Of a stretch of DNA of 64,000 nucleotides, positions 1 to 58,606 are shown one piece after another. The DNA is from Lingula anatina. Lineage: Eukaryota; Animalia; Brachiopoda. The notes below the pieces were generated by a model. That model searched no databases. It saw nothing but the letters and a program-made list of their open reading frames with translations, and had not been told where the DNA came from. The stretch is taken from NCBI GenBank assembly GCA_051362555.1, contig CM120642.1, positions 12,834,001 to 12,898,000 on the forward strand, written 5' to 3'. A program made the translations under genes and the position numbers. The first letter of the stretch is position 1; every line of letters starts with the position of its first letter.

Positions 1-3000
1 AACTAAGGTTAGTAAATTTTATTTTTTGGGGTGGTGGGATGGGTAAATTGAATAAATCTAATCTTGTTTTTCATTTCTTTTTACAGGACAAAGAAGATGA
101 AGAGCGACCCCACCCGGACATGGACTTCATTCTTGCATCCAAGCTAAGGTTAGTAAATTTTATTTTTTTGGGGTGGTGGGATGGGTAAATTGAATAAATC
201 TAATATCATTTTTCATTTCTTTTTACAGGACAAAGAAGATGACAAGCGACCCCACTCAGACATGGACTTCACTCTTGGATCCAAGCTAAGGTTGGTAAAT
301 TTTATTTTTTTGGGGTGGTGGGATGGGTAAAAGAATAAACCTAATCTCTTTTTTCATTTCTTTTTACAGGACAAAGAAGATGACGAACGGCCCAATCTGG
401 ACATGGACTTCACTCTTGGATCCAAGCTAAGGTTAGTATATTTTATTTTTTTGGGGTGGTGGGATGGGTAAATTGAATAAATCTAATATCATTTTTCATT
501 TCTTTTTACAGGACAAAGAAGATGACAAGCGACCCCACTCAGACATGGACTTCACTCTTGGATCCAAGCTAAGGTTAGTAAATTTTATCTTTTTGCTGTG
601 GTGGGATGGGTAAATTGAATAAATCTAATATCATTTTTCATTTCTTTTTACAGGACAAAGAAGATGACGAGCGACCCCAACCTGACATGGACTTCACTCT
701 TGGATCCAAGCTAAGGTTAGTAAATTTTATTTTTTTGGGGTGGTGGGATGGGTAAATTGAATAAATCTAATATCATTTTTCATTTCTTTTTACAGGACAA
801 AGAAGATGACGAGCGACCCCAACCTGACATGGACTTCACTCTTGGATCCAAGCTAAGGTTAGTACGGTAATTCTCCAATCTATACGAACGATTAAAATTA
901 ATTATTTTTGGAAGATAATCATTTTGTTTGTAAGGCTTGAAATTCAGTCTGCTAAAAATTGCCACGCGTTCGTATCAATTGAAATACGGATGGAATACGG
1001 CTGTACCTGAAGTTATTTCCACTTACCTACATTGCTAAGTGTAAGCATTACTTTCAGATTAAATCACTGTGATCAGCTAAAAGCACAAACAAATTATTCT
1101 TGCAATATTGCAATGAATTAAAACAAACTAAACAAAAGTCGGGAATTCAAGTTAAAAAACAATTTCTTCATACTAAAGAGGTACATTTCTCCCAAGACAA
1201 GACAACATCGTTTTTCCCTGTTATGTTTTACCAAAACAGGACAACATCGTTTTTCCCAACTTCTGTCAAAAACAGACACGAATATTTTCGTATCCAGTTG
1301 CATATTTTATTTATTGCATGTTTACTTTTAATATGATTTCACATATAGAAAATTTGCAATATTAATAATGTCACCCCCCCCCCCCATTAGGCCTAAATAA
1401 ATTTCTCCCGCCAAAACAAAATACTTGAAACTCCTCAGTAGATATCACTGACGTTAATAGAGATTATACTTGATATAAAAAAATAACATCAGCTCAATTC
1501 AAGTCTATTTATGAAAGTCTTATACAGCATATTAATTTGCACGCAATCAATGTAAACTTAATTAGAAAAAATACAGAAAACTGCAGGCAAATTTGTATAA
1601 GGTCATACGGCACCTTTATTTTTCACAATCACTAATATCAGTAAGGTTTACCTAATAGTTGTTCATGAGACAAGGTCTTTAACAAGGAAAAACAAACAAA
1701 CAAACAAACAAAAAAGTACATTAACTTTATCACAACTCCAATTAGAAAAATAAATACAATACAAGACAGAACTCTTAAAAAAATTAATTTCCTGATGACT
1801 ACCAAAAACAAATGAAAAACTCGATCATTGACAATGGATTTCTCATACTCTTCTGTTGTGCGTGGGTTTCAAGTTTATAGATTTTACTAGAAACCAGTTA
1901 TCGGTGAAACACTGATGGTGGATGTTGATGATCCAGTCGGCCGGCAGAAGTTAAGAAATGATAATAAACAGTAAGTAATTTATGCGTACTGATGCTGTCA
2001 ATAATTTCTCAATAACAATAGGGTTTTAAAACTACTGGCCTGTAGCTGCTGGCGGGCAGGTTGAGTCCTCCTATCGTCTCATTCAAAAACAGCACAAATA
2101 CATGATAACAATCTCTCCTGTCAAGTGGCAGTTCCTTTGTTTGGAACGGTGGTCTGAAAACTCGCTTTGATGAATCATGGGGCGAGTTTCAATCGGGCAC
2201 ACTTTCTTGCGTTCGGAAAATTTAAATTGTGCCCAAGGTGAGTTTAGCGATCGTTCGTACAGAACGGAGACAAAAAATTCAGATTCAGAGAATAAACATT
2301 TCGTTCGTAATTATTGCGGCGTTCGTATAGATTGGAGAATTACCGTAAATTATATTTTTTTGGGGTGGTGGGATGGGTAAATTGAATAAATCTAATCTAG
2401 TTTCTTATTTCTATTTACAGGACAAAGAAGATGACGAGCGACCCCACCTGGACATGGACTTCACTCTTAGATCCAAGCTAAGGTTAGTAAATTTTATATT
2501 TTGGGGTGGTGGGATGGGTAAATTGAATAAATCTAATCTTGTTTTTCATTTCTTTTTACAGGACAAAGATGACGAGCGACCCCAGCCAGACATGGACTTC
2601 ACTCTTGGATCCAAGCTAAGGTTAGTAAATTTTATTTTTTTGATGTGGTGGATTGGGTAAATTGAATAAATCTAATCTTGTTTTTCATTTATTTTTACAG
2701 GACAAAGAAGATGACGAGCGACCCCAACCGGACATGGACTTCACTCTTGGATCTAAACTAAGGTTAGTAAATTTTATTTTTTGGGGTGGTGGGATGGGTA
2801 AATTAAATAAATCTAATCTTGTTTTTTATTTCTTTTTACAGGACAAAGAAGATGAAGAGCGACCCCACCCGGACATGGACTTCATTCTTGCATCCAAGCT
2901 AAGGTTGGTAAATTTTATTTTTTTGGGGTGGTTGGATGGGTAAAATGAAAAAATCTAATCTTGATTTTCTTTTCTTTTTACAGGACAAAGAAGATGACGA

Positions 3001-6000
3001 GCGACCCCAACCGGATATGGACTTCACTCTTGGATCCAAGCTAAGGTTAGTAAATTTTATTTTTTTGGGGTGGTGGGATGGGTAAATTGAATAAATCTAA
3101 TATCATTTTTCATTTCTTTTTACAGCACAAAGAAGATGACGAGCGACCCCAACCTGACATGGACTTCACTCTTGGATCCAAGCTAAGGTTAGTAAATTTT
3201 ATTTTTTGGGGGTGGTGGGATGGGTAAATTGAATAAATCTAATATCATTTTTCATTTCTTTTTACAGGACAAAGAAGATGACGAACGGCCCAATCTGGAC
3301 ATGGACTTCACTCTTGGATCCAAGCTAAGGTTAGTAAATTTTATTTTTTTGGGGTGGTGGGATGGGTAAATTGAATAAATCTAATATCATTTTTCATTTC
3401 TTTTTACAGGACAAAGAAGATGACAAGCGACCCCAGCCAGACATGGACTTCACTCTTGGATCCAAGCTAAGGTTAGTAAATTTTATCTTTTTGGTGTGGT
3501 GGGATGGGTAAATTGAATAAATCTAATATCATTTTTCATTTCTTTTTACAGGACAAAGAAGATGACGAGCGACCCCAACCTGACATGGACTTCACTCTTG
3601 GATCCAAGCTAAGGTTAGTAAATTTTATTTTTTTGGGGTGGTGGGATGGGTAAATTGAATAAATCTAATATCATTTTTCATTTCTTTTTACAGGACAAAG
3701 AAGATGACAAGCGACCCCAGCCAGACATGGACTTCACTCTTGGATCCAAGCTAAGGTTAGTAAATTTTATCTTTTTGGTGTGGTGGGATGGGTAAATTGA
3801 ATAAATCTAATATCATTTTTCATTTCTTTTTACAGGACAAAGAAGATGACGAGCGACCCCAACCGGACATGGACTTCACTCTTGGATCCAAGCTAAGGTT
3901 AGTAAATTTTATTTTTTTGGGGTGGTGGGATGGGTAAATTGAATAAATCTAATATCATTTTTCATTTCTTTTTACAGGACAAAGAAGATGACGAGCGACC
4001 CCAACCTGACATGGACTTCACTCTTGGATCCAAGCTAAGGTTAGTAAATTATATTTTTTTGGGGTGGTGGGATGGGTAAATTGAATAAATCTAATCTAGT
4101 TTTTCATTTCTATTTACAGGACAAAGAAGATGACGAGCGACCCCACCTGGACATGGACTTCACTCTTGGATCCAAGCTAAGGTTAGTAAATTTTATTTTT
4201 TTGGTGTGGTGGATTGGGTAAATTGAATAAATCTAATCTTGTTTTTCATTTCTTTTTACAGGACAAAGATGACGAGCGACCCCAGCCAGACATGGACTTC
4301 ACTCTTGGATCCAAGCTAAGGTTAATAAATTTTATTTTTTTGATGTGGTGGATTGGGTAAATTGAATAAATCTAATCTTGTTTTTCATTTATTTTTACAG
4401 GACAAAGAAGATGACGAGCGACCCCAACCGGACATGGACTTCACTCTTGGATCTAAACTAAGGTTAGTAAATTTTATTTTTTGGGGTGGTGGGATGGGTA
4501 AATTAAATAAATCTAATCTTGTTTTTTATTTCTTTTTACAGGACAAAGAAGATTAAGAGCGACCCCACCCGGACATGGACTTCATTCTTGCATCCAAGCT
4601 AAGGTTGGTAAATTTTATTTTTTGGGGTGGTTGGATGGGTAAAATGAAAAAATCTAATCTTGATTTTCTTTTCTTTTTACAGGACAAAGAAGATGACGAG
4701 CGACCCCACCCGGACATGGACTTCACTCTTGGATCCAAGCTAAGGTTAGTAAATTTTATTTTTTTGGGGGTGTTGGGATGGGTAAATGAATAAACCTAAT
4801 CTCTTTTTTCATTTCTTTTTACAGGACAAAGAAGATGACGAGCGACCCCAACCGGACATGGACTTCACTCTTGGATCCAAGCTAAGGTTAGTAAATTTTA
4901 TTTTTTTGGGGTGGTGGGATGGGTAAATTGAATAAATCTAATCTAGTTTTTCATTTTTATTTACAGGACAAAGAAGATGACGAACGGCCCAATCCGGACA
5001 TGGACTTGACTCTTGGATCCAAGATAAGGTTAGTAAATTTTATTTTTTTTGGGATGGTGGGATGGGTACTTTTAATAAATCTAATCTTGTTTTTCATTTC
5101 TATTTACAAGACAAAGAAGATGATGAGCCACCCCAACAGGACATTGACTTCACTCTTGGATTCAAGCTAAGGTTAGTAAATTTGATTTTTTTGGGGTGGT
5201 GGGATGGGTAAATTGAATAAATCTAATCTTGTTTTTCATTTCTTTTTACAGGACAAAGAAGATGACGAGCGACCCCAACCAGACATGGACTTCACTCTTG
5301 GATCCAAGCTAAGGTTAGTAAATTTTATTTTTTGGGGGTGGTGGGATGGGTAAATTGAATAAATCTAATATCATTTTTCATTTCTTTTTACAGGACAAAG
5401 AAGATGACGAGCGACCCCAACCGGATATGGACTTCACTCTTGGATCCAAGCTAAGGTTAGTAAATTTTATTTTTTTGGGGTGGTGGGATGGGTAAATTGA
5501 ATAAATCTAATATCATTTTTCATTTCTTTTTACAGGACAAAGAAGATGACGAGCGACCCCAACCTGACATGGACTTCACTCTTGGATCCAAGCTAAGGTT
5601 AGTAAATTTTATTTTTTTGGGGTGGTGGGATGGGTAAATTGAATAAATCTAATATCATTTTTCATTTCTTTTTACAGGACAAAGAAGATGACGAGCGACC
5701 CCAACCTGACATGGACTTCACTCTTGGATCCAAGCTAAGGTTAGTAAATTTTATTTTTTTTGGGTGGTGGGATGGGTCAATTGAATAAATCTAATCTAGT
5801 TTTTCTTTTCTATTTACAGGACAAAGAAGATGACGAGCGACCCCACCTGGACATGGACTTCACTCTTGGATCCAAGCTAAGGTTAGTAAATTTTATATTT
5901 TGGGGTGGTGGGATGGGTAAATTGAATAAATCTAATCTTGTTTTTCATTTCTTTTTACAGGACAAAGAAGATGACGAGCGATCCCAGCCAGACATGGACT

Positions 6001-9000
6001 TCACTCTTGGATCCAAGCTAAGGTTAGTAAATTTTATTTTTTTGATGTGGTGGATTGGGTAAATTGAATAAATCTAATATCATTTTTCATTTCTTTTTAC
6101 AGGACAAAGAAAATGACGAGCGACCCCAACCTGACATGGACTTCACTCTTGGATCCAAGCTAAGGTTAGTAAATTTTATTTTTTTGGGGGTGTTGGGATG
6201 GGTAAATGAATAAACCTAATCTCTTTTTTCATTTCTTTTTACAGGACAAAGAAGATGACGAACAGTCCAATCTGGACATGGACTTCACTCTTGGATCCAA
6301 GCTAAGGTTAGTAAATTTTATTTTTTGGGGGGTGTTGGGATGGGGAAATGAATAAACCTAATCTCTTTTTTCATTTCTTTTTACAGGACAAAGAAGATGA
6401 CGAACGGTCCAATCTGGACATAGACTTCACTCTTGGATCCAAGCTAAGGTTAGTAAATTTTATTTTTTTGGGGTGGTGGGATGGGTAAATTGAATAAATC
6501 TAATATCATTTTTCATTTCTTTTTACAGGACAAAGAAGATGACGAGCGACCCCACCCAGACATGGACTTCACTCTTGGATCCAAGCTTAGGTTAGTAAAC
6601 TTTATCTTTTTGGTGTGGTGGGATGGGTAAATTGAATAAATCTAATATCATTTTTCATTTCTTTTTACAGGACACAGAAGATGACGAGCGACCCCAACCT
6701 GACATGGACTTCAATCTTGGATCCAAGCTAAGGTTAGTAAATTTTATTTTTTGGGGGTGGTGGGATGGGTAAATTGAATAAATCTAATATCATTTTTCAT
6801 TTCTTTTTACAGGACAAAGAAAATGACGAGCGACCCCAACTTGACAGGGACTTCACTCTTGGATCCAAGCTAAGGTTAGTAAATTTTATTTTTTTGGGGT
6901 GGTGGGATGGGTAAATTGAATAAATCTAATCTAGTTTTTCTTTTCTATTTACAGGACAAAGAAGATGATGAGCGACCCCACCTGGACATGGACTTCACTC
7001 TTGGATCCAAGCTAAGGTTAGTAAATTTTATATTTTGGGGTGGTGGGATGGGTAAATTGAATAAATCTAATCTTGTTTTTCATTTCTTTTTACAGGACAA
7101 AGAAGATGACGAGCGACCCCAGCCAGACATGGACTTCACTCTTGGATCCAAGCTAAGGTTAGTAAATTTTATTTTTTTGGGGTGGTGGGATGGGTAAATT
7201 GAATAAATCTAATATCATTTTTCATTTCTTTTTACAGGACAAAGAAGATGACGAGCGACCCCACCCAGACATGGACTTCACTCTTGGATCCAAGCTAAGG
7301 TTAGTAAACTTTATCTTTTTGGTGTGGTGGGATGGGTAAATTGAATAAATCTAATATCATTTTTCATTTCTTTTTACAGGACACAGAAGATGACGAGCGA
7401 CCCCAACCTGACATGGACTTCACTCTTGGATCCAAGCTAAGGTTAGTAAATTTTATTTTTTTGGGGTGGTGGGATGGGTAAATTGAATAAATCTAATATC
7501 ATTTTTCATTTCTTTTTACAGGACAAAGAAAATGACGAGCGACCCCAACCTGACATGGACTTCACTCTTGGATCCAAGCTAAGGTTAGTAAATTTTATTT
7601 TTTTGGGGTGGTGGGATGGGTAAATTGAATAAATCTAATCTAGTTTTTCTTTTCTATTTACAGGACAAAGAAGATGACGAGCGACCCCACCTGGACATAG
7701 ACTTCACTCTTGGATCCAAGCTAAGGTTAGTAAATTTTATATTTTGGGGTGGTGGGATGGGTAAATTGAATAAATCTAATCTTGTTTTTCATTTCTTTTT
7801 ACAGGACAAAGAAGATGACGAGCGACCCCAGCCAGACATGGACTTCACTCTTGGATCCAAGCTAAGGTTAGTAAATTTTATTTTTTTGATGTGGTGGATT
7901 GGGTAAATTGAATAAATCTAATCTTGTTTTTCATTTATTTTTTACAGGACAAAAAAGATGACGAGCGACCCCAACCGGACATGGACTTCACTCTTGGATC
8001 TAAACTAAGGTTAGTAAATTTTATTTTTTGGGGTGGTGGGATGGGTAAATTGAATAAATCTAATCTTGTTTTTCATTTCTTTTTACAGGACAAAGAAGAT
8101 GACGAGCGACCCCACCCGGACATGGACTTCACTCTTGGATCCAAGCTAAGGTTAGTAAATTTTATTTTTTTGGGGTGGTGGGATGGGTAAATTGAATAAA
8201 TCTAATATCATTTTTCATTTCTTTTTACAGGACAAAGAAGATGACGAGCGACCCCACCCAGACATGGACTTCACTCTTGGATCCAAGCTAAGGTTAGTAA
8301 ACTTTATCTTTTTGGTGTGGTGGGATGGGTAAATTGAATAAATCTAATATCATTTTTCATTTCTTTTTACAGGACACAGAAGATGACGAGCGACCCCAAC
8401 CTGACATGGACTTCACTCTTGGATCCAAGCTAAGGTTAGTAAATTTTTTTTTTTTGGGGTGGTGGGATGGGTAAATTGAATAAATCTAATATCATTTTTC
8501 ATTTCTTTTTACAGGACAAAGAAAATGACGAGCGACCCCAACCTGACATGGACTTCACTCTTGGATCCAAGCTAAGGTTAGTAAATTTTATTTTTTTGGG
8601 GTGGTGGGATGGGTAAATTGAATAAATCTAATCTAATTTTTCTTTTCTATTTACAGGACAAAGAAGATGACGAGCGACCCCACCTGGACATGGACTTCAC
8701 TCTTGCATCCAAGCTAAGGTTGGTAAATTTTATTTTTTTGGTGTGGTGGGATGGGTAAATTGAATAAATCTAATCTTGCTTTTCATTTCTTTTTACAGGA
8801 CAAAGAAGATGACGAGCGACCCCAACCAGACATGGACTTCACTCTTGGATCCAAGCTAAGGTAAGTAAATTTTATTTTTTTGGGGTGGTGGGATGGGTAA
8901 ATTGAAGAAATCTAATATCATTTTTCATTTCTTTTTACAGGACAAAGAAGATGACGAGCGACCCCAACCTGACATGGACTTCACTCTTGGATCCAAGCTA

Positions 9001-12000
9001 AGGTTAGTAAATTTTATTTTTTTGGGGTGGTTGGATGGGTAAATTGAAAAAATCTTACTTTGTTTTTCATTTCTTTTTACAGGACAAAGAAGATGACGAG
9101 CCACCCCAGCCAGACATGGACTTCACTCTTGGATCCAAGCTAAGGTTAGTAAATTTTATTTTTTTGATGTGGTGGATTGGGTAAATTGAATAAATCTAAT
9201 CTTGTTTTTCATTTATTTTTACAGGACAAAGAAGATGACGAGCGACCCCAACCGGACATGGACTTCACTCTTGGATCTAAACTAAGGTTAGTAAATTTTA
9301 TTTTTTGGGGTGGTGGGATGGGTAAATTGAATAAATCTAATCTTGTTTTTCATTTCTTTTTACAGGACAAAGAAGATGAAGAGGGACCCCACCCGGACAT
9401 GGACTTCATTCTTGCATCCAAGCTAAGGTTGGTAAATTTTATTTTTTTGGTGTGGTGGGATGGGTAAATTGAATAAATCTAATCTTGCTTTTCATTTCTT
9501 TTTACAGGACAAAGAAGATGACGAGCGACCCCAACCAGACATGGACTTCACTCTTGGATCGAAGCTAAGGTTAGTAAATTTTATTTTTTGGGGGTGGTGG
9601 GATGGGTAAATTGAATAAATCTAATCTTGTTTTTCATTTCTTTTTACAGGACAAAGAAGATGAAGAACGACCCCAACCGGACATGGATTCACTCTTGGAT
9701 CGAAGCTAAGGTTAGTAAATTTTATTTTTTTGGGGTGGTTGGATGGGTAATTTAAAAAATCTAATCTTGTTTTTCATTTTTTTTTTAACAGGACAAAGAA
9801 GATGACGAGCGACCCCACCTGTACATGGACTTCACTCTTGGATCCAAGCTAAGGTTAGTAAATTTTATTTTTTGGGGTGGTGGGATGGGTAAATTGAAAA
9901 AATGTAATCTTGTTTTTCATTTCTTTTTACAGGACAAAGAAGATGACGAGCGACCCCGCCTGGACATGGACTTCAGTCTTGGATCCAAGCTAAGCTTAGT
10001 AATTTTTATTTTTTGGGGTGGTTGGATGGGTAAATTGAAAAAATCTTACTTTGTTTTTCATTTCTTTTTACAGGACAAAGAAGATGACGAGCGACCCCAC
10101 CCGGACATGGACTTCACTCTTGGATCCAAGCTAAGGTTAGTAAATTTAATTTTTGGGGTGGTGGGATAGGTAAATTGAATAAATCTAATATTGTTTTTCA
10201 TTTCTTTTTACAGGACAAAGAAGATGACGAGCGACCCCAACCGGACATGGACTTCACTCTTGGATCCAAGCTAAGGTTAGTAAATTTTATTTTTTTGGGG
10301 TGGTGGGATGGGTAAATTGAATAAATCTAATATCATTTTTCATTTCTTTTTACAGGACAAAGAAAATGACGAGCGACCCCAACCTGACATGGACTTCACT
10401 CTTGGATCCAAGCTAAGGTTAGTAAATTTTATTTTTTTGGGGTGGTGGGATGGGTAAATTGAATAAATCTAATCTAATTTTTCTTTTCTATATACAGGAC
10501 AAAGAAGATGACGAGCGACCCCACCTGGACATGGACTTCACTCTTGCATCCAAGCTAAGGTTGGTAAATTTTATTTTTTTGGTGTGGTGGGATGGGTAAA
10601 TTGAATAAATCTAATCTTGCTTTTCATTTCTTTTTACAGGACAAAGAAGATGACGAGCGACCCCAACCAGACATGGACTTCACTCTTGGATCCAAGCTAA
10701 GGTAAGTAAATTTTATTTTTTTGGGGTGGTGGGATGGGTAAATTGAAGAAATCTAATATCATTTTTCATTTCTTTTTACAGGACAAAGAAGATGACGAGC
10801 GACCCCAACCTGACATGGACTTCACTCTTGGATCCAAGCTAAGGTTAGTAAATTTTATTTTTTTGGGGTGGTTGGATGGGTAAATTGAAAAAATCTTAAT
10901 TTGTTTTTCATTTCTTTTTACAGGACAAAGAAGATGACGAGCCACCCCAGCCAGACATGGACTTCACTCTTGGATCCAAGCTAAGGTTAGTAAATTTTAT
11001 TTTTTTGATGTGGTGGATTGGGTAAATTGAATAAATCTAATCTTGTTTTTCATTTATTTTTACAGGACAAAGAAGATGACGAGCGACCCCAACCGGACAT
11101 GGACTTCACTCTTGGATCTAAACTAAGGTTAGTAAATTTTATTTTTTGGGGTGGTGGGATGGCTAAATTGAATAAATCTAATCTTGTTTTTCATTTCTTT
11201 TTACAGGACAAAGAAGATGAAGAGGGACCCCACCCGGACATGGACTTCATTCTTGCATCCAAGCTAAGGTTGGTAAATTTTATTTTTTTGGTGTGGTGGG
11301 ATGGGTAAATTGAATAAATCTAATCTTGCTTTTCATTTCTTTTTACAGGACAAAGAAGATGACGAGCGACCCCAACCAGACATGGACTTCACTCTTGGAT
11401 CGAAGCTAAGGTTAGTAAATTTTATTTTTTGGGGGTGGTGGGATGGGTAAATTGAATAAATCTAATCTTGTTTTTCATTTCTTTTTACAGGACAAAGAAG
11501 ATGAAGAACGACCCCAACCGGACATGGATTCACTCTTGGATCGAAGCTAAGGTTAGTAAATTTTATTTTTTTGGGGTGGTTGGATGGGTAATTTAAAAAA
11601 TCTAATCTTGTTTTTCATTTTTTTTTTAACAGGACAAAGAAGATGACGAGCGACCCCACCTGTACATGGACTTCACTCTTGGATCCAAGCTAAGGTTAGT
11701 AAATTTTATTTTTTGGGGTGGTGGGATGGGTAAATTGAAAAAATGTAATCTTGTTTTTCATTTCTTTTTACAGGACAAAGAAGATGACGAGCGACCCCGC
11801 CTGGACATGGACTTCAGTCTTGGATCCAAGCTAAGCTTAGTAATTTTTATTTTTTGGGGTGGTTGGATGGGTAAATTGAAAAAATCTTACTTTGTTTTTC
11901 ATTTCTTTTTACAGGACAAAGAAGATGACGAGCGACCCCACCCGGACATGGACTTCACTCTTGGATCCAAGCTAAGGTTAGTAAATTTAATTTTTGGGGT

Positions 12001-15000
12001 GGTGGGATAGGTAAATTGAATAAATCTAATATTGTTTTTCATTTCTTTTTACAGGACAAAGAAGATGACGAGCGACCCCAACCGGACATGGACTTCACTC
12101 TTGGATCCAAGCTAAGGTTAGTAAATTTTATTTTTTTGGGGTGGTGGGATGGGTAAATTGAATAAATCTAATCTAGTTTTTCATTTTTATTTACAGGACA
12201 AAGAAGATGACGAACGGCCCAATCCGGACATGGACTTGACTCTTGGATCCAAGATAAGGTTAGTAAATTTTATTTTTTTTGGGATGGTGGGATGGGTACT
12301 TTTAATAAATCTAATCTTGTTTTTCATTTCTATTTACAAGACAAAGAAGATGATGAGCCACCCCAACAGGACATTGACTTCACTCTTGGATTCAAGCTAA
12401 GGTTAGTAAATTTGATTTTTTTGGGGTGGTGGGATGGGTAAATTGAATAAATCTAATCTTGTTTTTCATTTCTTTTTACAGGACAAAGAAGATGACGAGC
12501 GACCCCAACCAGACATGGACTTCACTCTTGGATCCAAGCTAAGGTTAGTAAATTTTATTTTTTGGGGGTGGTGGGATGGGTAAATTGAATAAATCTAATA
12601 TCATTTTTCATTTCTTTTTACAGGACAAAGAAGATGACGAGCGACCCCAACCGGATATGGACTTCACTCTTGGATCCAAGCTAAGGTTAGTAAATTTTAT
12701 TTTTTTGGGGTGGTGGGATGGGTAAATTGAATAAATCTAATATCATTTTTCATTTCTTTTTACAGGACAAAGAAGATGACGAGCGACCCCAACCTGACAT
12801 GGACTTCACTCTTGGATCCAAGCTAAGGTTAGTAAATTTTATTTTTTTGGGGTGGTGGGATGGGTAAATTGAATAAATCTAATATCATTTTTCATTTCTT
12901 TTTACAGGACAAAGAAGATGACGAGCGACCCCAACCTGACATGGACTTCACTCTTGGATCCAAGCTAAGGTTAGTAAATTTTATTTTTTTTGGGTGGTGG
13001 GATGGGTCAATTGAATAAATCTAATCTAGTTTTTCTTTTCTATTTACAGGACAAAGAAGATGACGAGCGACCCCACCTGGACATGGACTTCACTCTTGGA
13101 TCCAAGCTAAGGTTAGTAAATTTTATATTTTGGGGTGGTGGGATGGGTAAATTGAATAAATCTAATCTTGTTTTTCATTTCTTTTTACAGGACAAAGAAG
13201 ATGACGAGCGATCCCAGCCAGACATGGACTTCACTCTTGGATCCAAGCTAAGGTTAGTAAATTTTATTTTTTTGATGTGGTGGATTGGGTAAATTGAATA
13301 AATCTAATATCATTTTTCATTTCTTTTTACAGGACAAAGAAAATGACGAGCGACCCCAACCTGACATGGACTTCACTCTTGGATCCAAGCTAAGGTTAGT
13401 AAATTTTATTTTTTTGGGGGTGTTGGGATGGGTAAATGAATAAACCTAATCTCTTTTTTCATTTCTTTTTACAGGACAAAGAAGATGACGAACAGTCCAA
13501 TCTGGACATGGACTTCACTCTTGGATCCAAGCTAAGGTTAGTAAATTTTATTTTTTGGGGGGTGTTGGGATGGGGAAATGAATAAACCTAATCTCTTTTT
13601 TCATTTCTTTTTACAGGACAAAGAAGATGACGAACGGTCCAATCTGGACATGGACTTCACTCTTGGATCCAAGCTAAGGTTAGTAAATTTTATTTTTTTG
13701 GGGTGGTGGGATGGGTAAATTGAATAAATCTAATATCATTTTTCATTTCTTTTTACAGGACAAAGAAGATGACGAGCGACCCCACCCAGACATGGACTTC
13801 ACTCTTGGATCCAAGCTTAGGTTAGTAAACTTTATCTTTTTGGTGTGGTGGGATGGGTAAATTGAATAAATCTAATATCATTTTTCATTTCTTTTTACAG
13901 GACAAAGAAGATGACGAGCGACCCCGCCTGGACATGGACTTCAGTCTTGGATCCAAGCTAAGCTTAGTAATTTTTATTTTTTGGGGTGGTTGGATGGGTA
14001 AATTGAAAAAATCTTACTTTGTTTTTCATTTCTTTTTACAGGACAAAGAAGATGACGAGCGACCCCACCCGGACATGGACTTCACTCTTGGATCCAAGCT
14101 AAGGTTAGTAAATTTAATTTTTGGGGTGGTGGGATAGGTAAATTGAATAAATCTAATATTGTTTTTCATTTCTTTTTACAGGACAAAGAAGATGACGAGC
14201 GACCCCAACCGGACATGGACTTCACTCTTGGATCCAAGCTAAGGTTAGTAAATTTTATTTTTTTGGGGTGGTGGGATGGGTAAATTGAATAAATCTAATC
14301 TAGTTTTTCATTTTTATTTACAGGACAAAGAAGATGACGAACGGCCCAATCCGGACATGGACTTGACTCTTGGATCCAAGATAAGGTTAGTAAATTTTAT
14401 TTTTTTTGGGATGGTGGGATGGGTACTTTTAATAAATCTAATCTTGTTTTTCATTTCTATTTACAAGACAAAGAAGATGATGAGCCACCCCAACAGGACA
14501 TTGACTTCACTCTTGGATTCAAGCTAAGGTTAGTAAATTTGATTTTTTTGGGGTGGTGGGATGGGTAAATTGAATAAATCTAATCTTGTTTTTCATTTCT
14601 TTTTACAGGACAAAGAAGATGACGAGCGACCCCAACCAGACATGGACTTCACTCTTGGATCCAAGCTAAGGTTAGTAAATTTTATTTTTTGGGGGTGGTG
14701 GGATGGGTAAATTGAATAAATCTAATATCATTTTTCATTTCTTTTTACAGGACAAAGAAGATGACGAGCGACCCCAACCGGATATGGACTTCACTCTTGG
14801 ATCCAAGCTAAGGTTAGTAAATTTTATTTTTTTGGGGTGGTGGGATGGGTAAATTGAATAAATCTAATATCATTTTTCATTTCTTTTTACAGGACAAAGA
14901 AGATGACGAGCGACCCCAACCTGACATGGACTTCACTCTTGGATCCAAGCTAAGGTTAGTAAATTTTATTTTTTTGGGGTGGTGGGATGGGTAAATTGAA

Positions 15001-18000
15001 TAAATCTAATATCATTTTTCATTTCTTTTTACAGGACAAAGAAGATGACGAGCGACCCCAACCTGACATGGACTTCACTCTTGGATCCAAGCTAAGGTTA
15101 GTAAATTTTATTTTTTTTGGGTGGTGGGATGGGTCAATTGAATAAATGTAATCTAGTTTTTCTTTTCTATTTACAGGACAAAGAAGATGACGAGCGACCC
15201 CACCTGGACATGGACTTCACTCTTGGATCCAAGCTAAGGTTAGTAAATTTTATATTTTGGGGTGGTGGGATGGGTAAATTGAATAAATCTAATCTTGTTT
15301 TTCATTTCTTTTTACAGGACAAAGAAGATGACGAGCGATCCCAGCCAGACATGGACTTCACTCTTGGATCCAAGCTAAGGTTAGTAAATTTTATTTTTTT
15401 GATGTGGTGGATTGGGTAAATTGAATAAATCTAATATCATTTTTCATTTCTTTTTACAGGACAAAGAAAATGACGAGCGACCCCAACCTGACATGGACTT
15501 CACTCTTGGATCCAAGCTAAGGTTAGTAAATTTTATTTTTTTGGGGGTGTTGGGATGGGTAAATGAATAAACCTAATCTCTTTTTTCATTTCTTTTTACA
15601 GGACAAAGAAGATGACGAACAGTCCAATCTGGACATGGACTTCACTCTTGGATCCAAGCTAAGGTTAGTAAATTTTATTTTTTGGGGGGTGTTGGGATGG
15701 GGAAATGAATAAACCTAATCTCTTTTTTCATTTCTTTTTACAGGACAAAGAAGATGACGAACGGTCCAATCTGGACATGGACTTCACTCTTGGATCCAAG
15801 CTAAGGTTAGTAAATTTTATTTTTTTGGGGTGGTGGGATGGGTAAATTGAATAAATCTAATATCATTTTTCATTTCTTTTTACAGGACAAAGAAGATGAC
15901 GAGCGACCCCACCCAGACATGGACTTCACTCTTGGATCCAAGCTTAGGTTAGTAAACTTTATCTTTTTGGTGTGGTGGGATGGGTAAATTGAATAAATCT
16001 AATATCATTTTTCATTTCTTTTTACAGGACAAAGAAGATGACGAGCGACCCCGCCTGGACATGGACTTCAGTCTTGGATCCAAGCTAAGCTTAGTAATTT
16101 TTATTTTTTGGGGTGGTTGGATGGGTAAATTGAAAAAATCTTACTTTGTTTTTCATTTCTTTTTACAGGACAAAGAAGATGACGAGCGACCCCACCCGGA
16201 CATGGACTTCACTCTTGGATCCAAGCTAAGGTTAGTAAATTTAATTTTTGGGGTGGTGGGATAGGTAAATTGAATAAATCTAATATTGTTTTTCATTTCT
16301 TTTTACAGGACAAAGAAGATGACGAGCGACCCCAACCGGACATGGACTTCACTCTTGGATCCAAGCTAAGGTTAGTAAATTTTATTTTTTTGGGGTGGTG
16401 GGATGGGTAAATTGAATAAATCTAATCTAGTTTTTCATTTTTATTTACAGGACAAAGAAGATGACGAACGGCCCAATCCGGACATGGACTTGACTCTTGG
16501 ATCCAAGATAAGGTTAGTAAATTTTATTTTTTTTGGGATGGTGGGATGGGTACTTTTAATAAATCTAATCTTGTTTTTCATTTCTATTTACAAGACAAAG
16601 AAGATGATGAGCCACCCCAACAGGACATTGACTTCACTCTTGGATTCAAGCTAAGGTTAGTAAATTTGATTTTTTTGGGGTGGTGGGATGGGTAAATTGA
16701 ATAAATCTAATCTTGTTTTTCATTTCTTTTTACAGGACAAAGAAGATGACGAGCGACCCCAACCAGACATGGACTTCACTCTTGGATCCAAGCTAAGGTT
16801 AGTAAATTTTATTTTTTGGGGGTGGTGGGATGGGTAAATTGAATAAATCTAATATCATTTTTCATTTCTTTTTACAGGACAAAGAAGATGACGAGCGACC
16901 CCAACCGGATATGGACTTCACTCTTGGATCCAAGCTAAGGTTAGTAAATTTTATTTTTTTGGGGTGGTGGGATGGGTAAATTGAATAAATCTAATATCAT
17001 TTTTCATTTCTTTTTACAGGACAAAGAAGATGACGAGCGACCCCAACCTGACATGGACTTCACTCTTGGATCCAAGCTAAGGTTAGTAAATTTTATTTTT
17101 TTGGGGTGGTGGGATGGGTAAATTGAATAAATCTAATATCATTTTTCATTTCTTTTTACAGGACAAAGAAGATGACGAGCGACCCCAACCTGACATGGAC
17201 TTCACTCTTGGATCCAAGCTAAGGTTAGTAAATTTTATTTTTTTTGGGTGGTGGGATGGGTCAATTGAATAAATCTAATCTAGTTTTTCTTTTCTATTTA
17301 CAGGACAAAGAAGATGACGAGCGACCCCACCTGGACATGGACTTCACTCTTGGATCCAAGCTAAGGTTAGTAAATTTTATATTTTGGGGTGGTGGGATGG
17401 GTAAATTGAATAAATCTAATCTTGTTTTTCATTTCTTTTTACAGGACAAAGAAGATGACGAGCGATCCCAGCCAGACATGGACTTCACTCTTGGATCCAA
17501 GCTAAGGTTAGTAAATTTTATTTTTTTGATGTGGTGGATTGGGTAAATTGAATAAATCTAATATCATTTTTCATTTCTTTTTACAGGACAAAGAAAATGA
17601 CGAGCGACCCCAACCTGACATGGACTTCACTCTTGGATCCAAGCTAAGGTTAGTAAATTTTATTTTTTTGGGGGTGTTGGGATGGGTAAATGAATAAACC
17701 TAATCTCTTTTTTCATTTCTTTTTACAGGACAAAGAAGATGACGAACAGTCCAATCTGGACATGGACTTCACTCTTGGATCCAAGCTAAGGTTAGTAAAT
17801 TTTATTTTTTGGGGGGTGTTGGGATGGGGAAATGAATAAACCTAATCTCTTTTTTCATTTCTTTTTACAGGACAAAGAAGATGACGAACGGTCCAATCTG
17901 GACATGGACTTCACTCTTGGATCCAAGCTAAGGTTAGTAAATTTTATTTTTTTGGGGTGGTGGGATGGGTAAATTGAATAAATCTAATATCATTTTTCAT

Positions 18001-21000
18001 TTCTTTTTACAGGACAAAGAAGATGACGAGCGACCCCACCCAGACATGGACTTCACTCTTGGATCCAAGCTTAGGTTAGTAAACTTTATCTTTTTGGTGT
18101 GGTGGGATGGGTAAATTGAATAAATCTAATATCATTTTTCATTTCTTTTTACAGGACACAGAAGATGACGAGCGACCCCAACCTGACATGGACTTCAATC
18201 TTGGATCCAAGCTAAGGTTAGTAAATTTTATTTTTTGGGGGTGGTGGGATGGGTAAATTGAATAAATCTAATATCATTTTTCATTTCTTTTTACAGGACA
18301 AAGAAAATGACGAGCGACCCCAACTTGACAGGGACTTCACTCTTGGATCCAAGCTAAGGTTAGTAAATTTTATTTTTTTGGGGTGGTGGGATGGGTAAAT
18401 TGAATAAATCTAATCTAGTTTTTCTTTTCTATTTACAGGACAAAGAAGATGATGAGCGACCCCACCTGGACATGGACTTCACTCTTGGATCCAAGCTAAG
18501 GTTAGTAAATTTTATATTTTGGGGTGGTGGGATGGGTAAATTGAATAAATCTAATCTTGTTTTTCATTTCTTTTTACAGGACAAAGAAGATGACGAGCGA
18601 CCCCAGCCAGACATGGACTTCACTCTTGGATCCAAGCTAAGGTTAGTAAATTTTATTTTTTTGGGGTGGTGGGATGGGTAAATTGAATAAATCTAATATC
18701 ATTTTTCATTTCTTTTTACAGGACAAAGAAGATGACGAGCGACCCCACCCAGACATGGACTTCACTCTTGGATCCAAGCTAAGGTTAGTAAATTTTATTT
18801 TTTTGGGGTGGTGGGATGGGTAAATTGAATAAATCTAATATCATTTTTCATTTCTTTTTACAGGACAAAGAAAATGACGAGCGACCCCAACCTGACATGG
18901 ACTTCACTCTTGGATCCAAGCTAAGGTTAGTAAATTTTATTTTTTTGGGGTGGTGGGATGGGTAAATTGAATAAATCTAATCTAGTTTTTCTTTTCTATT
19001 TACAGGACAAAGAAGATGACGAGCGACCCCACCTGGACATAGACTTCACTCTTGGATCCAAGCTAAGGTTAGTAAATTTTATATTTTGGGGTGGTGGGAT
19101 GGGTAAATTGAATAAATCTAATCTTGTTTTTCATTTCTTTTTACAGGACAAAGAAGATGACGAGCGACCCCAGCCAGACATGGACTTCACTCTTGGATCC
19201 AAGCTAAGGTTAGTAAATTTTATTTTTTTGATGTGGTGGATTGGGTAAATTGAATAAATCTAATCTTGTTTTTCATTTATTTTTTACAGGACAAAAAAGA
19301 TGACGAGCGACCCCAACCGGACATGGACTTCACTCTTGGATCTAAACTAAGGTTAGTAAATTTTATTTTTTGGGGTGGTGGGATGGGTAAATTGAATAAA
19401 TCTAATCTTGTTTTTCATTTCTTTTTACAGGACAAAGAAGATGACGAGCGACCCCACCCGGACATGGACTTCACTCTTGGATCCAAGCTAAGGTTAGTAA
19501 ATTTTATTTTTTTGGGGTGGTGGGATGGGTAAATTGAATAAATCTAATATCATTTTTCATTTCTTTTTACAGGACAAAGAAGATGACGAGCGACCCCACC
19601 CAGACATGGACTTCACTCTTGGATCCAAGCTAAGGTTAGTAAACTTTATCTTTTTGGTGTGGTGGGATGGGTAAATTGAATAAATCTAATATCATTTTTC
19701 ATTTCTTTTTACAGGACACAGAAGATGACGAGCGACCCCAACCTGACATGGACTTCACTCTTGGATCCAAGCTAAGGTTAGTAAATTTTATTTTTTTGGG
19801 GTGGTGGGATGGGTAAATTGAATAAATCTAATATCATTTTTCATTTCTTTTTACAGGACAAAGAAAATGACGAGCGACCCCAACCTGACATGGACTTCAC
19901 TCTTGGATCCAAGCTAAGGTTAGTAAATTTTATTTTTTTGGGGTGGTGGGATGGGTAAATTGAATAAATCTAATCTAATTTTTCTTTTCTATTTACAGGA
20001 CAAAGAAGATGACGAGCGACCCCACCTGGACATGGACTTCACTCTTGCATCCAAGCTAAGGTTGGTAAATTTTATTTTTTTGGTGTGGTGGGATGGGTAA
20101 ATTGAATAAATCTAATCTTGCTTTTCATTTCTTTTTACAGGACAAAGAAGATGACGAGCGACCCCAACCAGACATGGACTTCACTCTTGGATCCAAGCTA
20201 AGGTAAGTAAATTTTATTTTTTTGGGGTGGTGGGATGGGTAAATTGAAGAAATCTAATATCATTTTTCATTTCTTTTTACAGGACAAAGAAGATGACGAG
20301 CGACCCCAACCTGACATGGACTTCACTCTTGGATCCAAGCTAAGGTTAGTAAATTTTATTTTTTTGGGGTGGTTGGATGGGTAAATTGAAAAAATCTTAC
20401 TTTGTTTTTCATTTCTTTTTACAGGACAAAGAAGATGACGAGCCACCCCAGCCAGACATGGACTTCACTCTTGGATCCAAGCTAAGGTTAGTAAATTTTA
20501 TTTTTTTGATGTGGTGGATTGGGTAAATTGAATAAATCTAATCTTGTTTTTCATTTATTTTTACAGGACAAAGAAGATGACGAGCGACCCCAACCGGACA
20601 TGGACTTCACTCTTGGATCTAAACTAAGGTTAGTAAATTTTATTTTTTGGGGTGGTGGGATGGGTAAATTGAATAAATCTAATCTTGTTTTTCATTTCTT
20701 TTTACAGGACAAAGAAGATGAAGAGGGACCCCACCCGGACATGGACTTCATTCTTGCATCCAAGCTAAGGTTGGTAAATTTTATTTTTTTTGGTGTGGTG
20801 GGATGGGTAAATTGAATAAATCTAATCTTGCTTTTCATTTCTTTTTACAGGACAAAGAAGATGACGAGCGACCCCAACCAGACATGGACTTCACTCTTGG
20901 ATCGAAGCTAAGGTTAGTAAATTTTATTTTTTGGGGGTGGTGGGATGGGTAAATTGAATAAATCTAATCTTGTTTTTCATTTCTTTTTACAGGACAAAGA

Positions 21001-21612
21001 AGATGAAGAACGACCCCAACCGGACATGGATTCACTCTTGGATCGAAGCTAAGGTTAGTAAATTTTATTTTTTTGGGGTGGTTGGATGGGTAATTTAAAA
21101 AATCTAATCTTGTTTTTCATTTTTTTTTTAACGGGACAAAGAAGATGACGAGCGACCCCACCTGTACATGGACTTCACTCTTGGATCCAAGCTAAGGTTA
21201 GTAAATTTTATTTTTTGGGGTGGTGGGATGGGTAAATTGAAAAAATGTAATCTTGTTTTTCATTTCTTTTTACAGGACAAAGAAGATGACGAGCGACCCC
21301 GCCTGGACATGGACTTCAGTCTTGGATCCAAGCTAAGCTTAGTAATTTTTATTTTTTGGGGTGGTTGGATGGGTAAATTGAAAAAATCTTACTTTGTTTT
21401 TCATTTCTTTTTACAGGACAAAGAAGATGACGAGCGACCCCACCCGGACATGGACTTCACTCTTGGATCCAAGCTAAGGTTAGTAAATTTAATTTTTGGG
21501 GTGGTGGGATAGGTAAATTGAATAAATCTAATATTGTTTTTCATTTCTTTTTACAGGACAAAGAAGATGATGTGCGACTCCACCGGACATGGACTTCACT
21601 CTTAGATCCAAG
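1..21612 (+). repeat. ~142-bp tandem repeat array (~140 units, truncated by left window edge); each unit looks like an exon plus intron
   Basis: Unit tctaat..ttttcatttctttttacag|GACAAAGAAGATGACGAGCGACCCCAACCTGACATGGACTTCACTCTTGGATCCAAGCTAAG|gttagtaaattttatttttttggggtggtgggatgggtaaattgaataaa recurs every 141-143 bp with a BamHI site in most units; the array ends mid-unit at ~21612. Confidence 0.99.
865..2345. mobile_element. Non-autonomous Tc1/mariner-pogo-type DNA transposon (1481 bp) inserted in the array
   Basis: Perfect 26-bp TIRs cggtaattctccaatctatacgaacg (865-890) and cgttcgtatagattggagaattaccg (2320-2345); TA duplication at 863-864 and 2346-2347; subterminal cgttcgta motifs at 967, 2252 and 2302; no transposase ORF. 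Confidence 0.93.

Positions 21613-25141: not shown

Positions 25142-58606
<33,465 letters not shown>

What the first reader, a model, noticed from the sequence alone, without database searches (positions are those of the whole stretch)
1..21612. A satellite whose monomer is a complete spliceosomal exon-intron cassette (~140 copies)
Seen: nearly every 142-bp unit has a branch-point-like CTAAT about 25-30 nt before a long polypyrimidine tract and CAG, then a 62-nt segment open in phase 0 (DKEDDERPQPDMDFTLGSKL+AG), a donor AAG|GTTAGT (GTAAGT in some units, e.g. 8861), and G-triplets typical of short-intron enhancers. Splice signals are retained almost throughout. Substitutions cluster in codons 6-10 (RPQP, RPHP, RPHL, RPNL, RPNP, GPHP, QSNL, RPRL). 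Because 62 is not a multiple of 3, splicing two units in a row gives ...KLRTKKMTSDPNLTWTSLLDPS* and stops. Inference: (a) a huge array of alternative or mutually exclusive exons of an upstream + strand gene with frame/NMD-enforced single choice, loosely Dscam-like but young; (b) a multi-exon lncRNA or 3' UTR; or (c) a satellite born from a genic exon-intron unit. No downstream + strand exon was recognised, and the last unit lacks a donor.
Basis: partly seen in the sequence, partly recalled or inferred. Interest (0 to 1): 0.85.

Follow-up and report, generated by a model that had tools for sequence, protein, structure and literature searches.

The report
Satellite built from spliced exon-intron unit
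In what is likely a lamp-shell (brachiopod) genome, a 142-base piece made of one whole exon and one whole intron is repeated at least 142 times in a row; RNA reads show related copies spliced to each other at the same signals, while these particular copies hardly appear in the RNA, so it is likely a recent, mostly silent overgrowth of a non-coding transcript rather than a protein-diversifying exon array.

Summary
Observation confirmed: 142 head-to-tail units (62-nt exon, 80-nt intron), strong splice signals on the + strand only, higher-order repeats and one inserted transposon. The array lies tail-to-tail with a CYFIP gene matching Lingula anatina.

Raw poly(A) RNA shows that the signals work. 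Depth steps at both predicted sites, and reads join unit to unit and non-unit sequence to the acceptor. But the spliced units are diverged relatives: 69 of 71 sense reads carry a letter found in 7 of 142 window units, and 9 of 12 listed exon variants occur in no window unit.

Within the window, splice signals vary as much as the rest of the monomer, and there is no coding selection. Two joined units are closed in 133 of 140 pairs, and no protein relative was found. A Dscam-like coding array is not supported.

Best reading: a young satellite-like expansion of one cassette from a repeat-built, non-coding spliced transcript family. Open: whether the RNA animals carry another haplotype of this same array, and what the host gene is (left of the window, not held). 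It is a new variant of known architectures (C19MC-HG, SmPoMuc, amphioxus mirages).

The parts
1..21612 (+). Tandem array of 142-bp exon+intron units, 142 exon copies, cut by the window's left edge; mean pairwise identity 92%
654..715 (+). Representative 62-nt exon (unit 5), after CAG and before GTTAGT; phase 0 reads DKEDDERPQPDMDFTLGSKL; phases 1 and 2 are closed in nearly all units
   Evidence: boundaries used in RNA of relatives
716..795 (+). Representative 80-nt intron: donor, G runs, CTAAT, pyrimidine tract, CAG; no hairpin beyond shuffles, no Rfam family
865..2345 (.). 1481-bp element with 26-bp perfect terminal inverted repeats and duplicated TA, inserted just behind the donor of unit 6; no Pfam hit in the two open stretches scanned
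8515..12116 (+). 13-unit higher-order block duplicated in tandem (units 50-62 and 63-75)
11915..18074 (+). 15-unit higher-order repeat, about three copies (units 74-117)
16451..21478 (+). Near copy of units 25-61 (offset 80-81 units)
21417..21478 (+). Unit 141 exon, on which RNA reads were laid: depth steps at both ends, unit-to-unit joints, loose ends at the acceptor
21557..21612 (+). Terminal diverged unit: 1-nt deletion, no donor; shares the T at exon nt 15 with the transcribed relatives; no read continues past 21614
25142..58585 (-). Convergent neighbour: CYFIP gene (Pfam FragX_IP), last three coding exons 100% identical to Lingula anatina XP_013390578; context, not part of the array

Best explanation
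The array is 142 or more tandem copies of one whole exon plus one whole intron, likely amplified recently by unequal crossing-over from a family of related units that RNA reads show spliced to each other on the + strand into a likely non-coding transcript. Shown: real splice signals, higher-order repeats, use of both splice sites in relatives, unit-to-unit joins, closed frames on joining, and no selection on signals or codons among the window's copies. Inferred: a duplication whose period equals exon plus intron gives a complete cassette in every copy, so the intact signals are inherited and need no selection. Also inferred: block duplications (13, 15 and about 37 units) and a transposon insertion built the present array; the older, more diverged units lie left of the window or at another locus, behind non-unit exons; the window's copies are mostly skipped or not transcribed. 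If the host has a reading frame, the second unit would end it, and further units would be 3' non-coding exons that invite nonsense-mediated decay.
For: Depth steps at acceptor 21417 (X1 14.6 to 33.0, X2 5.3 to 13.7, X3 9.2 to 20.1) and donor 21479 (28.7 to 12.4, 11.8 to 7.0, 19.6 to 9.0). A joint 'goes back 62' in 1, 2 and 4 reads; loose ends behind the donor read as the start of another unit (X1 8, X3 5 reads); loose ends before the acceptor are unit ends or non-unit sequence (X1 11+6, X2 3, X3 4+4). First mates lie on the minus strand (X1 33 to 0 over the exon), i.e. + strand RNA by the tool's usual convention; one search shows X1, X2, X4 stranded and X7 not. 69 of 71 such reads in X1-X3 have T at 21431, against 7 of 142 window units. 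9 of the 12 exon variants listed are in 0 of 139 aligned window units. No read is 99% or more alike. Five X3 reads of the opposite orientation lack the T, a weak hint that window-type units exist in that animal but not in sense RNA. Neutral pattern: signals 11 of 17 vs 65 of 125 columns variable; 11 synonymous of 40 changes vs 9.05 expected, P=0.26. Joined pairs closed in 133 of 140 in phase 0. RNA variants at 21435 and 21465 would, alone, make TGA in phase 0. No protein relative. Higher-order repeats.
Against: The RNA animals are tied to the window only by a species label. I had no lay left to measure their identity on CYFIP, and L. anatina diverges among localities (PMC8146825, abstract), so their allele of this same array could have another consensus. 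Only 6-25% of each run was read; counts are tens of reads, and mates of one fragment are not independent. X7 shows no step at the donor (9 to 9), and X4 had almost no reads on the units. No DNA control for the joined form was given, so an intron-less 62-bp DNA repeat is not formally excluded. The host gene and the left end of the array were not seen. 127 of 141 units are still fully intact, and the selection tests have low power on 60 distinct monomers with shared ancestry.
Confidence: 0.6

Rival explanations
1. The array itself is the body of a live multi-exon lncRNA or 3' UTR with more than 140 short introns, and the reads differ only because the RNA animals carry another, separately homogenised haplotype or belong to another Lingula lineage.
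For: Spliced sense reads use the exact sites; 127 of 141 units are intact; the terminal unit shares the T of the RNA type; lineages diverge within L. anatina (PMC8146825 abstract); C19MC-HG cDNAs also failed to match the reference exactly (PMC2691840 passages).
Against: Reads are more diverse among themselves than the window units (many reads under 90% alike, one relative far more diverged), which looks like an old family, not one homogenised allele. Opposite-strand X3 reads are window-like. Donor- and acceptor-dead units were copied along in the higher-order repeats (CTTAGT 5 times, CAA 4 times).
Confidence: 0.25
2. A mirage-like expansion in the last intron or 3' end of a protein-coding gene: the normal mRNA skips or ends before the array, and the spliced units are leaky by-products.
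For: Non-unit sequences are joined to the unit acceptor, two of them with related ends; about 40% of depth at the junctions stays in the intron; mirages of 150-160 bp with AG/GT signals do not disturb splicing in amphioxus (PMC3087553 passages).
Against: No protein holding the unit peptide was found (weak for a 20-residue match). No read continues from the last unit into a terminal exon. The unit spans both boundaries, not one.
Confidence: 0.1
3. A Dscam-like array of mutually exclusive coding exons, with the frame shift and decay enforcing one choice.
For: Phase 0 is open in 138 of 142; changes cluster in codons 5-10; no single-change nonsense allele among 40 (1.5 expected, P=0.18).
Against: Unit-to-unit splicing is seen. 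Many units are identical (38 distinct exons among 141). No excess of synonymous change. Half of the cluster lies on CpGs. No downstream + strand exon is seen in RNA. An open frame is expected by chance.
Confidence: 0.05

Closest known systems
C19MC-HG, host transcript of the primate miRNA cluster (PMC2691840; passages read); the SNORD115/116 host transcript is similar (search listing only)
   Same: A short non-coding exon (123 nt, 37 similar segments) repeated in tandem units and spliced unit to unit; no reading frame; cDNAs hard to place on the reference.
   Different: Those units are 400-700 nt and carry a miRNA or snoRNA in the intron. Here the intron is 80 nt with no hairpin or Rfam family, and there are at least 142 copies in higher-order repeats.
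SmPoMuc polymorphic mucins of Schistosoma mansoni (PMC2576457; passages read)
   Same: An exon with its flanking introns repeated in tandem, homogenised by concerted evolution and spliced unit to unit.
   Different: There the exon is 27 nt, frame-preserving and coding, units are about 1 kb, and there are at most 20. Here the exon is 62 nt and joining closes the frame.
Amphioxus 'mirage' minisatellites: Adh3, globins BflGb6 and BflGb9 (PMC3087553; passages read)
   Same: Tandem copies of genic sequence with AG/GT signals, units up to 150-160 bp, concerted evolution with divergent edge units, copies mostly unused.
   Different: Mirages span one exon-intron boundary, and the globin cases have 6 copies or fewer. 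This unit holds both boundaries, has at least 142 copies, and its relatives are spliced.
FIRRE lncRNA with the RRD exonic local repeat (PMC4820808; passages read)
   Same: A repeat that forms many exons of a non-coding transcript (7 of 13 human, 11 of 23 mouse exons).
   Different: RRD copies are discontinuous local repeats with a shown nuclear-retention role. Here the copies are head-to-tail and no function is shown.
CapA satellite from a NOS1AP intron (10.1101/213868; abstract and opening text read)
   Same: A satellite born from genic sequence.
   Different: Purely intronic, about 1.5-kb monomer, no exon cassette described in the text I saw.
Dscam1 mutually exclusive exon arrays (PMC4835542; passages read)
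   Same: Tandemly duplicated exons.
   Different: Dscam exons encode domain variants and one is chosen per transcript; neither is seen here.

Membership tests
Satellite DNA with higher-order repeats | Long head-to-tail array of a >100-bp monomer with multi-unit periods | tested here: met
   21.6 kb, 142-bp period, 13- and 15-unit blocks
Satellite DNA with higher-order repeats | Heterochromatic location or several arrays in the genome | not testable with these tools
   No genome held
Repeat-built non-coding host transcripts (C19MC-HG, SNORD115/116 host) | Repeated exon spliced unit to unit | tested here: met
   Met for diverged relatives, not shown for the window's copies
Repeat-built non-coding host transcripts (C19MC-HG, SNORD115/116 host) | No reading frame across joined exons | tested here: met
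   133, 139 and 137 of 140 consecutive pairs closed in phases 0, 1 and 2
Repeat-built non-coding host transcripts (C19MC-HG, SNORD115/116 host) | miRNA or snoRNA carried in each intron | tested here: not met
   No Rfam match near gathering score in 1-4000; intron folding z +0.8 and +1.2; small-RNA data not examined
Dscam1-type mutually exclusive exon array | One exon of the array per transcript | tested here: not met
   Unit-to-unit joints and loose ends
Dscam1-type mutually exclusive exon array | Exons under coding constraint, encoding variants of a protein domain | tested here: not met
   11 synonymous of 40 vs 9.05 expected; no Pfam or protein hit
Dscam1-type mutually exclusive exon array | Constitutive in-frame exons on both sides | tested here: inconclusive
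   No read past 21614; upstream side outside the window
Mirage minisatellite | Unit spans one exon-intron boundary of a protein-coding gene | tested here: not met
   Unit holds both boundaries; coding host not identified
Mirage minisatellite | Copies largely ignored by splicing; edge unit divergent | tested here: inconclusive
   Window-type units rare in sense RNA (at most 2 of 71 reads) and last unit divergent, but haplotype not controlled
SmPoMuc-type repeated coding exon | Frame-preserving repeated exon | tested here: not met
   62 nt in 136 of 141
FIRRE/RRD-type lncRNA | Exonic repeat acts as a nuclear-retention module | not testable with these tools
   Needs fractionation or FISH

The most novel reading that the evidence does not exclude
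A living satellite-gene: the whole array of more than 140 cassettes is transcribed and spliced into a variable-length non-coding RNA or decay-triggering 3' tail, whose exon number changes between animals by satellite turnover. Copy number of a satellite would then directly set the number of exon junctions, and with it the stability or location of a transcript.
Probability: 0.2. Interest if true: 0.75.

Novelty: new variant of a known kind. Interest (0 to 1): 0.5.

Why it matters
It is a clear case of satellite DNA arising from a working splicing unit, with the spliced family and the runaway copies both visible. It makes two questions testable: how the spliceosome treats more than a hundred near-identical, intact 62-nt exons in a row, and whether satellite turnover can build or resize multi-exon non-coding transcripts. 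It also warns that intact splice signals and an open frame in a young repeat are not evidence of exon function.

Tried and rejected
No whole genome is held, so the left end and the host gene could not be read.

My first idea, that unit 142 is the gene's true terminal exon, is not supported: depth is zero from 21615, and reads from 21622 on come from dispersed repeats.

Protein searches with phase-0 translations found nothing: 0 of 162 candidates, 0 of 1, and 0 hits at E 0.001 among 1.84 billion representatives. All are weak tests for a 20-residue exon. The ESM Atlas gave no answer.

An exact 29-nt pattern in metagenome contigs gave 0 matches. A mirtron or snoRNA payload was not supported. Three short motifs from the reads' non-unit ends are not in the window at 2 mismatches or fewer. 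No indexed RNA holder was listed; the raw-read runs came by species label. No earlier notes exist on this genome or sequence. The fourth 'CpG' (monomer position 59) is an artefact of the column consensus and was disregarded.

Literature: ten searches listed no description of this repeat. A term search of the main text of a recent Lingula genome paper found 'satellite' and 'tandem repeat' 0 times (PMC13121700); its supplements were not opened and could list it. PMC11076287 (passages) was not relevant.

Full report
Anatomy. The stretch 1-21612 is a head-to-tail array of period 142 with 142 exon-like units. The exon is 62 nt in 136 of 141, preceded by CAG in 137 of 142 and followed by GT in 136 of 141. 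CTAAT lies just before the pyrimidine tract in 130 of 142. Of the 142 units, 139 intron+exon monomers were aligned; left out were the first (its intron is cut by the window), the one holding the transposon, and the last (no donor). They are 92% identical on average and fall into 60 distinct types. There is a tandem 13-unit block, a 15-unit block in about three copies, and a duplication at offset 80-81 units. A 1481-bp element with 26-bp inverted ends and a duplicated TA sits behind the donor of unit 6; TA duplication is typical of Tc1/mariner-type elements (recalled, not tested). The last unit is diverged and lacks a donor. The left end is outside the window, and no genome is held.

Context. 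The rest of the window is a minus-strand CYFIP gene ending about 3.5 kb from the array. Its exons match Lingula anatina XP_013390578 at 100% in the last three coding exons and at 93.9% in a proline-rich first exon, so the window is likely from Lingula. The array's splice signals point towards CYFIP, tail to tail.

Are the signals real? Scored with matrices from 26 CYFIP introns, the acceptor exceeds all or nearly all background AGs, and the donor is moderate (top 3.2%). None of 594 tiles of unique sequence has both, and the minus strand of the monomer has nothing similar.

Are they used? Nine raw RNA runs came by species label, and five were laid on the array end. In the stranded runs, first mates over the units lie on the minus strand, i.e. 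+ strand RNA by the usual convention. Depth steps at the acceptor (X1 14.6 to 33.0; X2 5.3 to 13.7; X3 9.2 to 20.1) and at the donor (28.7 to 12.4; 11.8 to 7.0; 19.6 to 9.0). A joint from exon end back to exon start (62 nt) is in 1, 2 and 4 reads. Loose ends behind the donor read as the start of a different unit (8 and 5 reads). Loose ends before the acceptor are unit ends or non-unit sequence, and motifs from the latter are not in the window. Against this: X7 shows no donor step, X4 has almost no reads on the units, roughly 40% of junction depth stays in the intron, and no DNA control of the joined form was given.

Which copies are used? Not evidently the window's. No read is 99% or more alike. 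T at exon nt 15 is in 33 of 33, 13 of 15 and 23 of 23 sense reads of X1-X3, but in 7 of 142 window units. Of 12 exon variants listed, 9 are in none of 139 window monomers; 22 further rows of that table were not shown. A far more diverged, intron-retaining relative appears in all four runs. Five opposite-strand X3 reads lack the T. No read continues beyond 21614. So an older, diverse family is spliced, and the homogeneous array here is either under-used or absent from those animals. The identity of the RNA animals to the window could not be measured, and L. anatina diverges among localities (PMC8146825, abstract).

Selection and coding. Splice-signal columns vary as often as others (11 of 17 vs 65 of 125, p=0.44). 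Synonymous changes are 11 of 40 vs 9.05 expected, P=0.26. Dead donors and acceptors were copied along in the higher-order blocks. An open phase 0 arises in 41% of shuffles. The hot spot in codons 5-10 holds the exon's three CpGs, which carry half of its changes. Two consecutive exons are closed in 133 of 140 pairs in phase 0. Two common RNA variants would alone create stops in phase 0, unless neighbouring changes not shown offset them. No protein or Pfam relative was found (weak for so short a peptide). The intron has no hairpin or Rfam family.

Mechanism. Inferred: a tandem duplication whose length equals exon plus intron yields a full cassette in each copy. Repeated unequal exchange first made a family of diverged units in a + strand transcript, where they are spliced into a product that cannot code beyond the second unit. 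One variant then expanded with higher-order periods into the present array, which drifts neutrally and is mostly skipped or not transcribed (0.6). Rivals: the array is itself the live transcript and the reads come from another haplotype (0.25); a mirage-like by-product in a coding gene (0.1); Dscam-like single choice (0.05).

Comparison. It works like C19MC-HG (repeated non-coding exon spliced in ladders; PMC2691840, passages) but lacks an intronic small RNA. It is built like SmPoMuc repeats (PMC2576457, passages) but is not frame-preserving. It turns over like amphioxus mirages (PMC3087553, passages) but spans both boundaries. FIRRE's RRD (PMC4820808, passages) is discontinuous, and CapA (10.1101/213868, abstract and opening text) is intronic only. 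It fails the Dscam tests (PMC4835542, passages). Ten literature searches listed no description of this repeat, and a five-term search for spliced satellite monomers returned 0 papers; the library lacks most subscription journals. Earlier scan notes describe similar arrays in other genomes; these are unchecked leads that suggest the type recurs.

Verdict. A real feature and a new variant of a known kind: a satellite whose monomer is a working splicing cassette, with RNA proof for its relatives and none yet for these copies. Interest 0.5.

Noticed in passing
window:53168-54094 (-): CYFIP has an alternative proline-rich first exon of about 310 codons, matching the N-terminus of the long Lingula isoforms at 93.9%.
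   Followed up: partly
window:44163-44246 and 44670-44757 (-): Two similar exons for the same part of CYFIP; different database isoforms map to one or the other, so likely a mutually exclusive pair.
   Followed up: partly
window:865-2345: TA-flanked element with perfect 26-bp inverted ends and sub-terminal repeats, apparently non-autonomous; perfect ends suggest a recent insertion.
   Followed up: partly
window:21622-22250: The array ends against dispersed repeats that draw many partial RNA reads, with depth in the hundreds or more in run X7.
   Followed up: no
window:26400-29520 and 51000-52400: Several related 137-402-bp tandem repeats with a short GC-rich microsatellite core fill CYFIP introns; they resemble Helitron-derived elements of bivalves (recalled, not tested).
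   Followed up: no
window:752-757 (and the same place in most units): A second donor-like site (TGG|GTAAAT) 36 nt into the intron scores slightly above the main donor; no depth step was seen there.
   Followed up: partly
reads laid on window:21538-21576: A strongly diverged relative of the unit is found in all four runs with its branch point and acceptor retained in the RNA; its locus is not in the window.
   Followed up: partly
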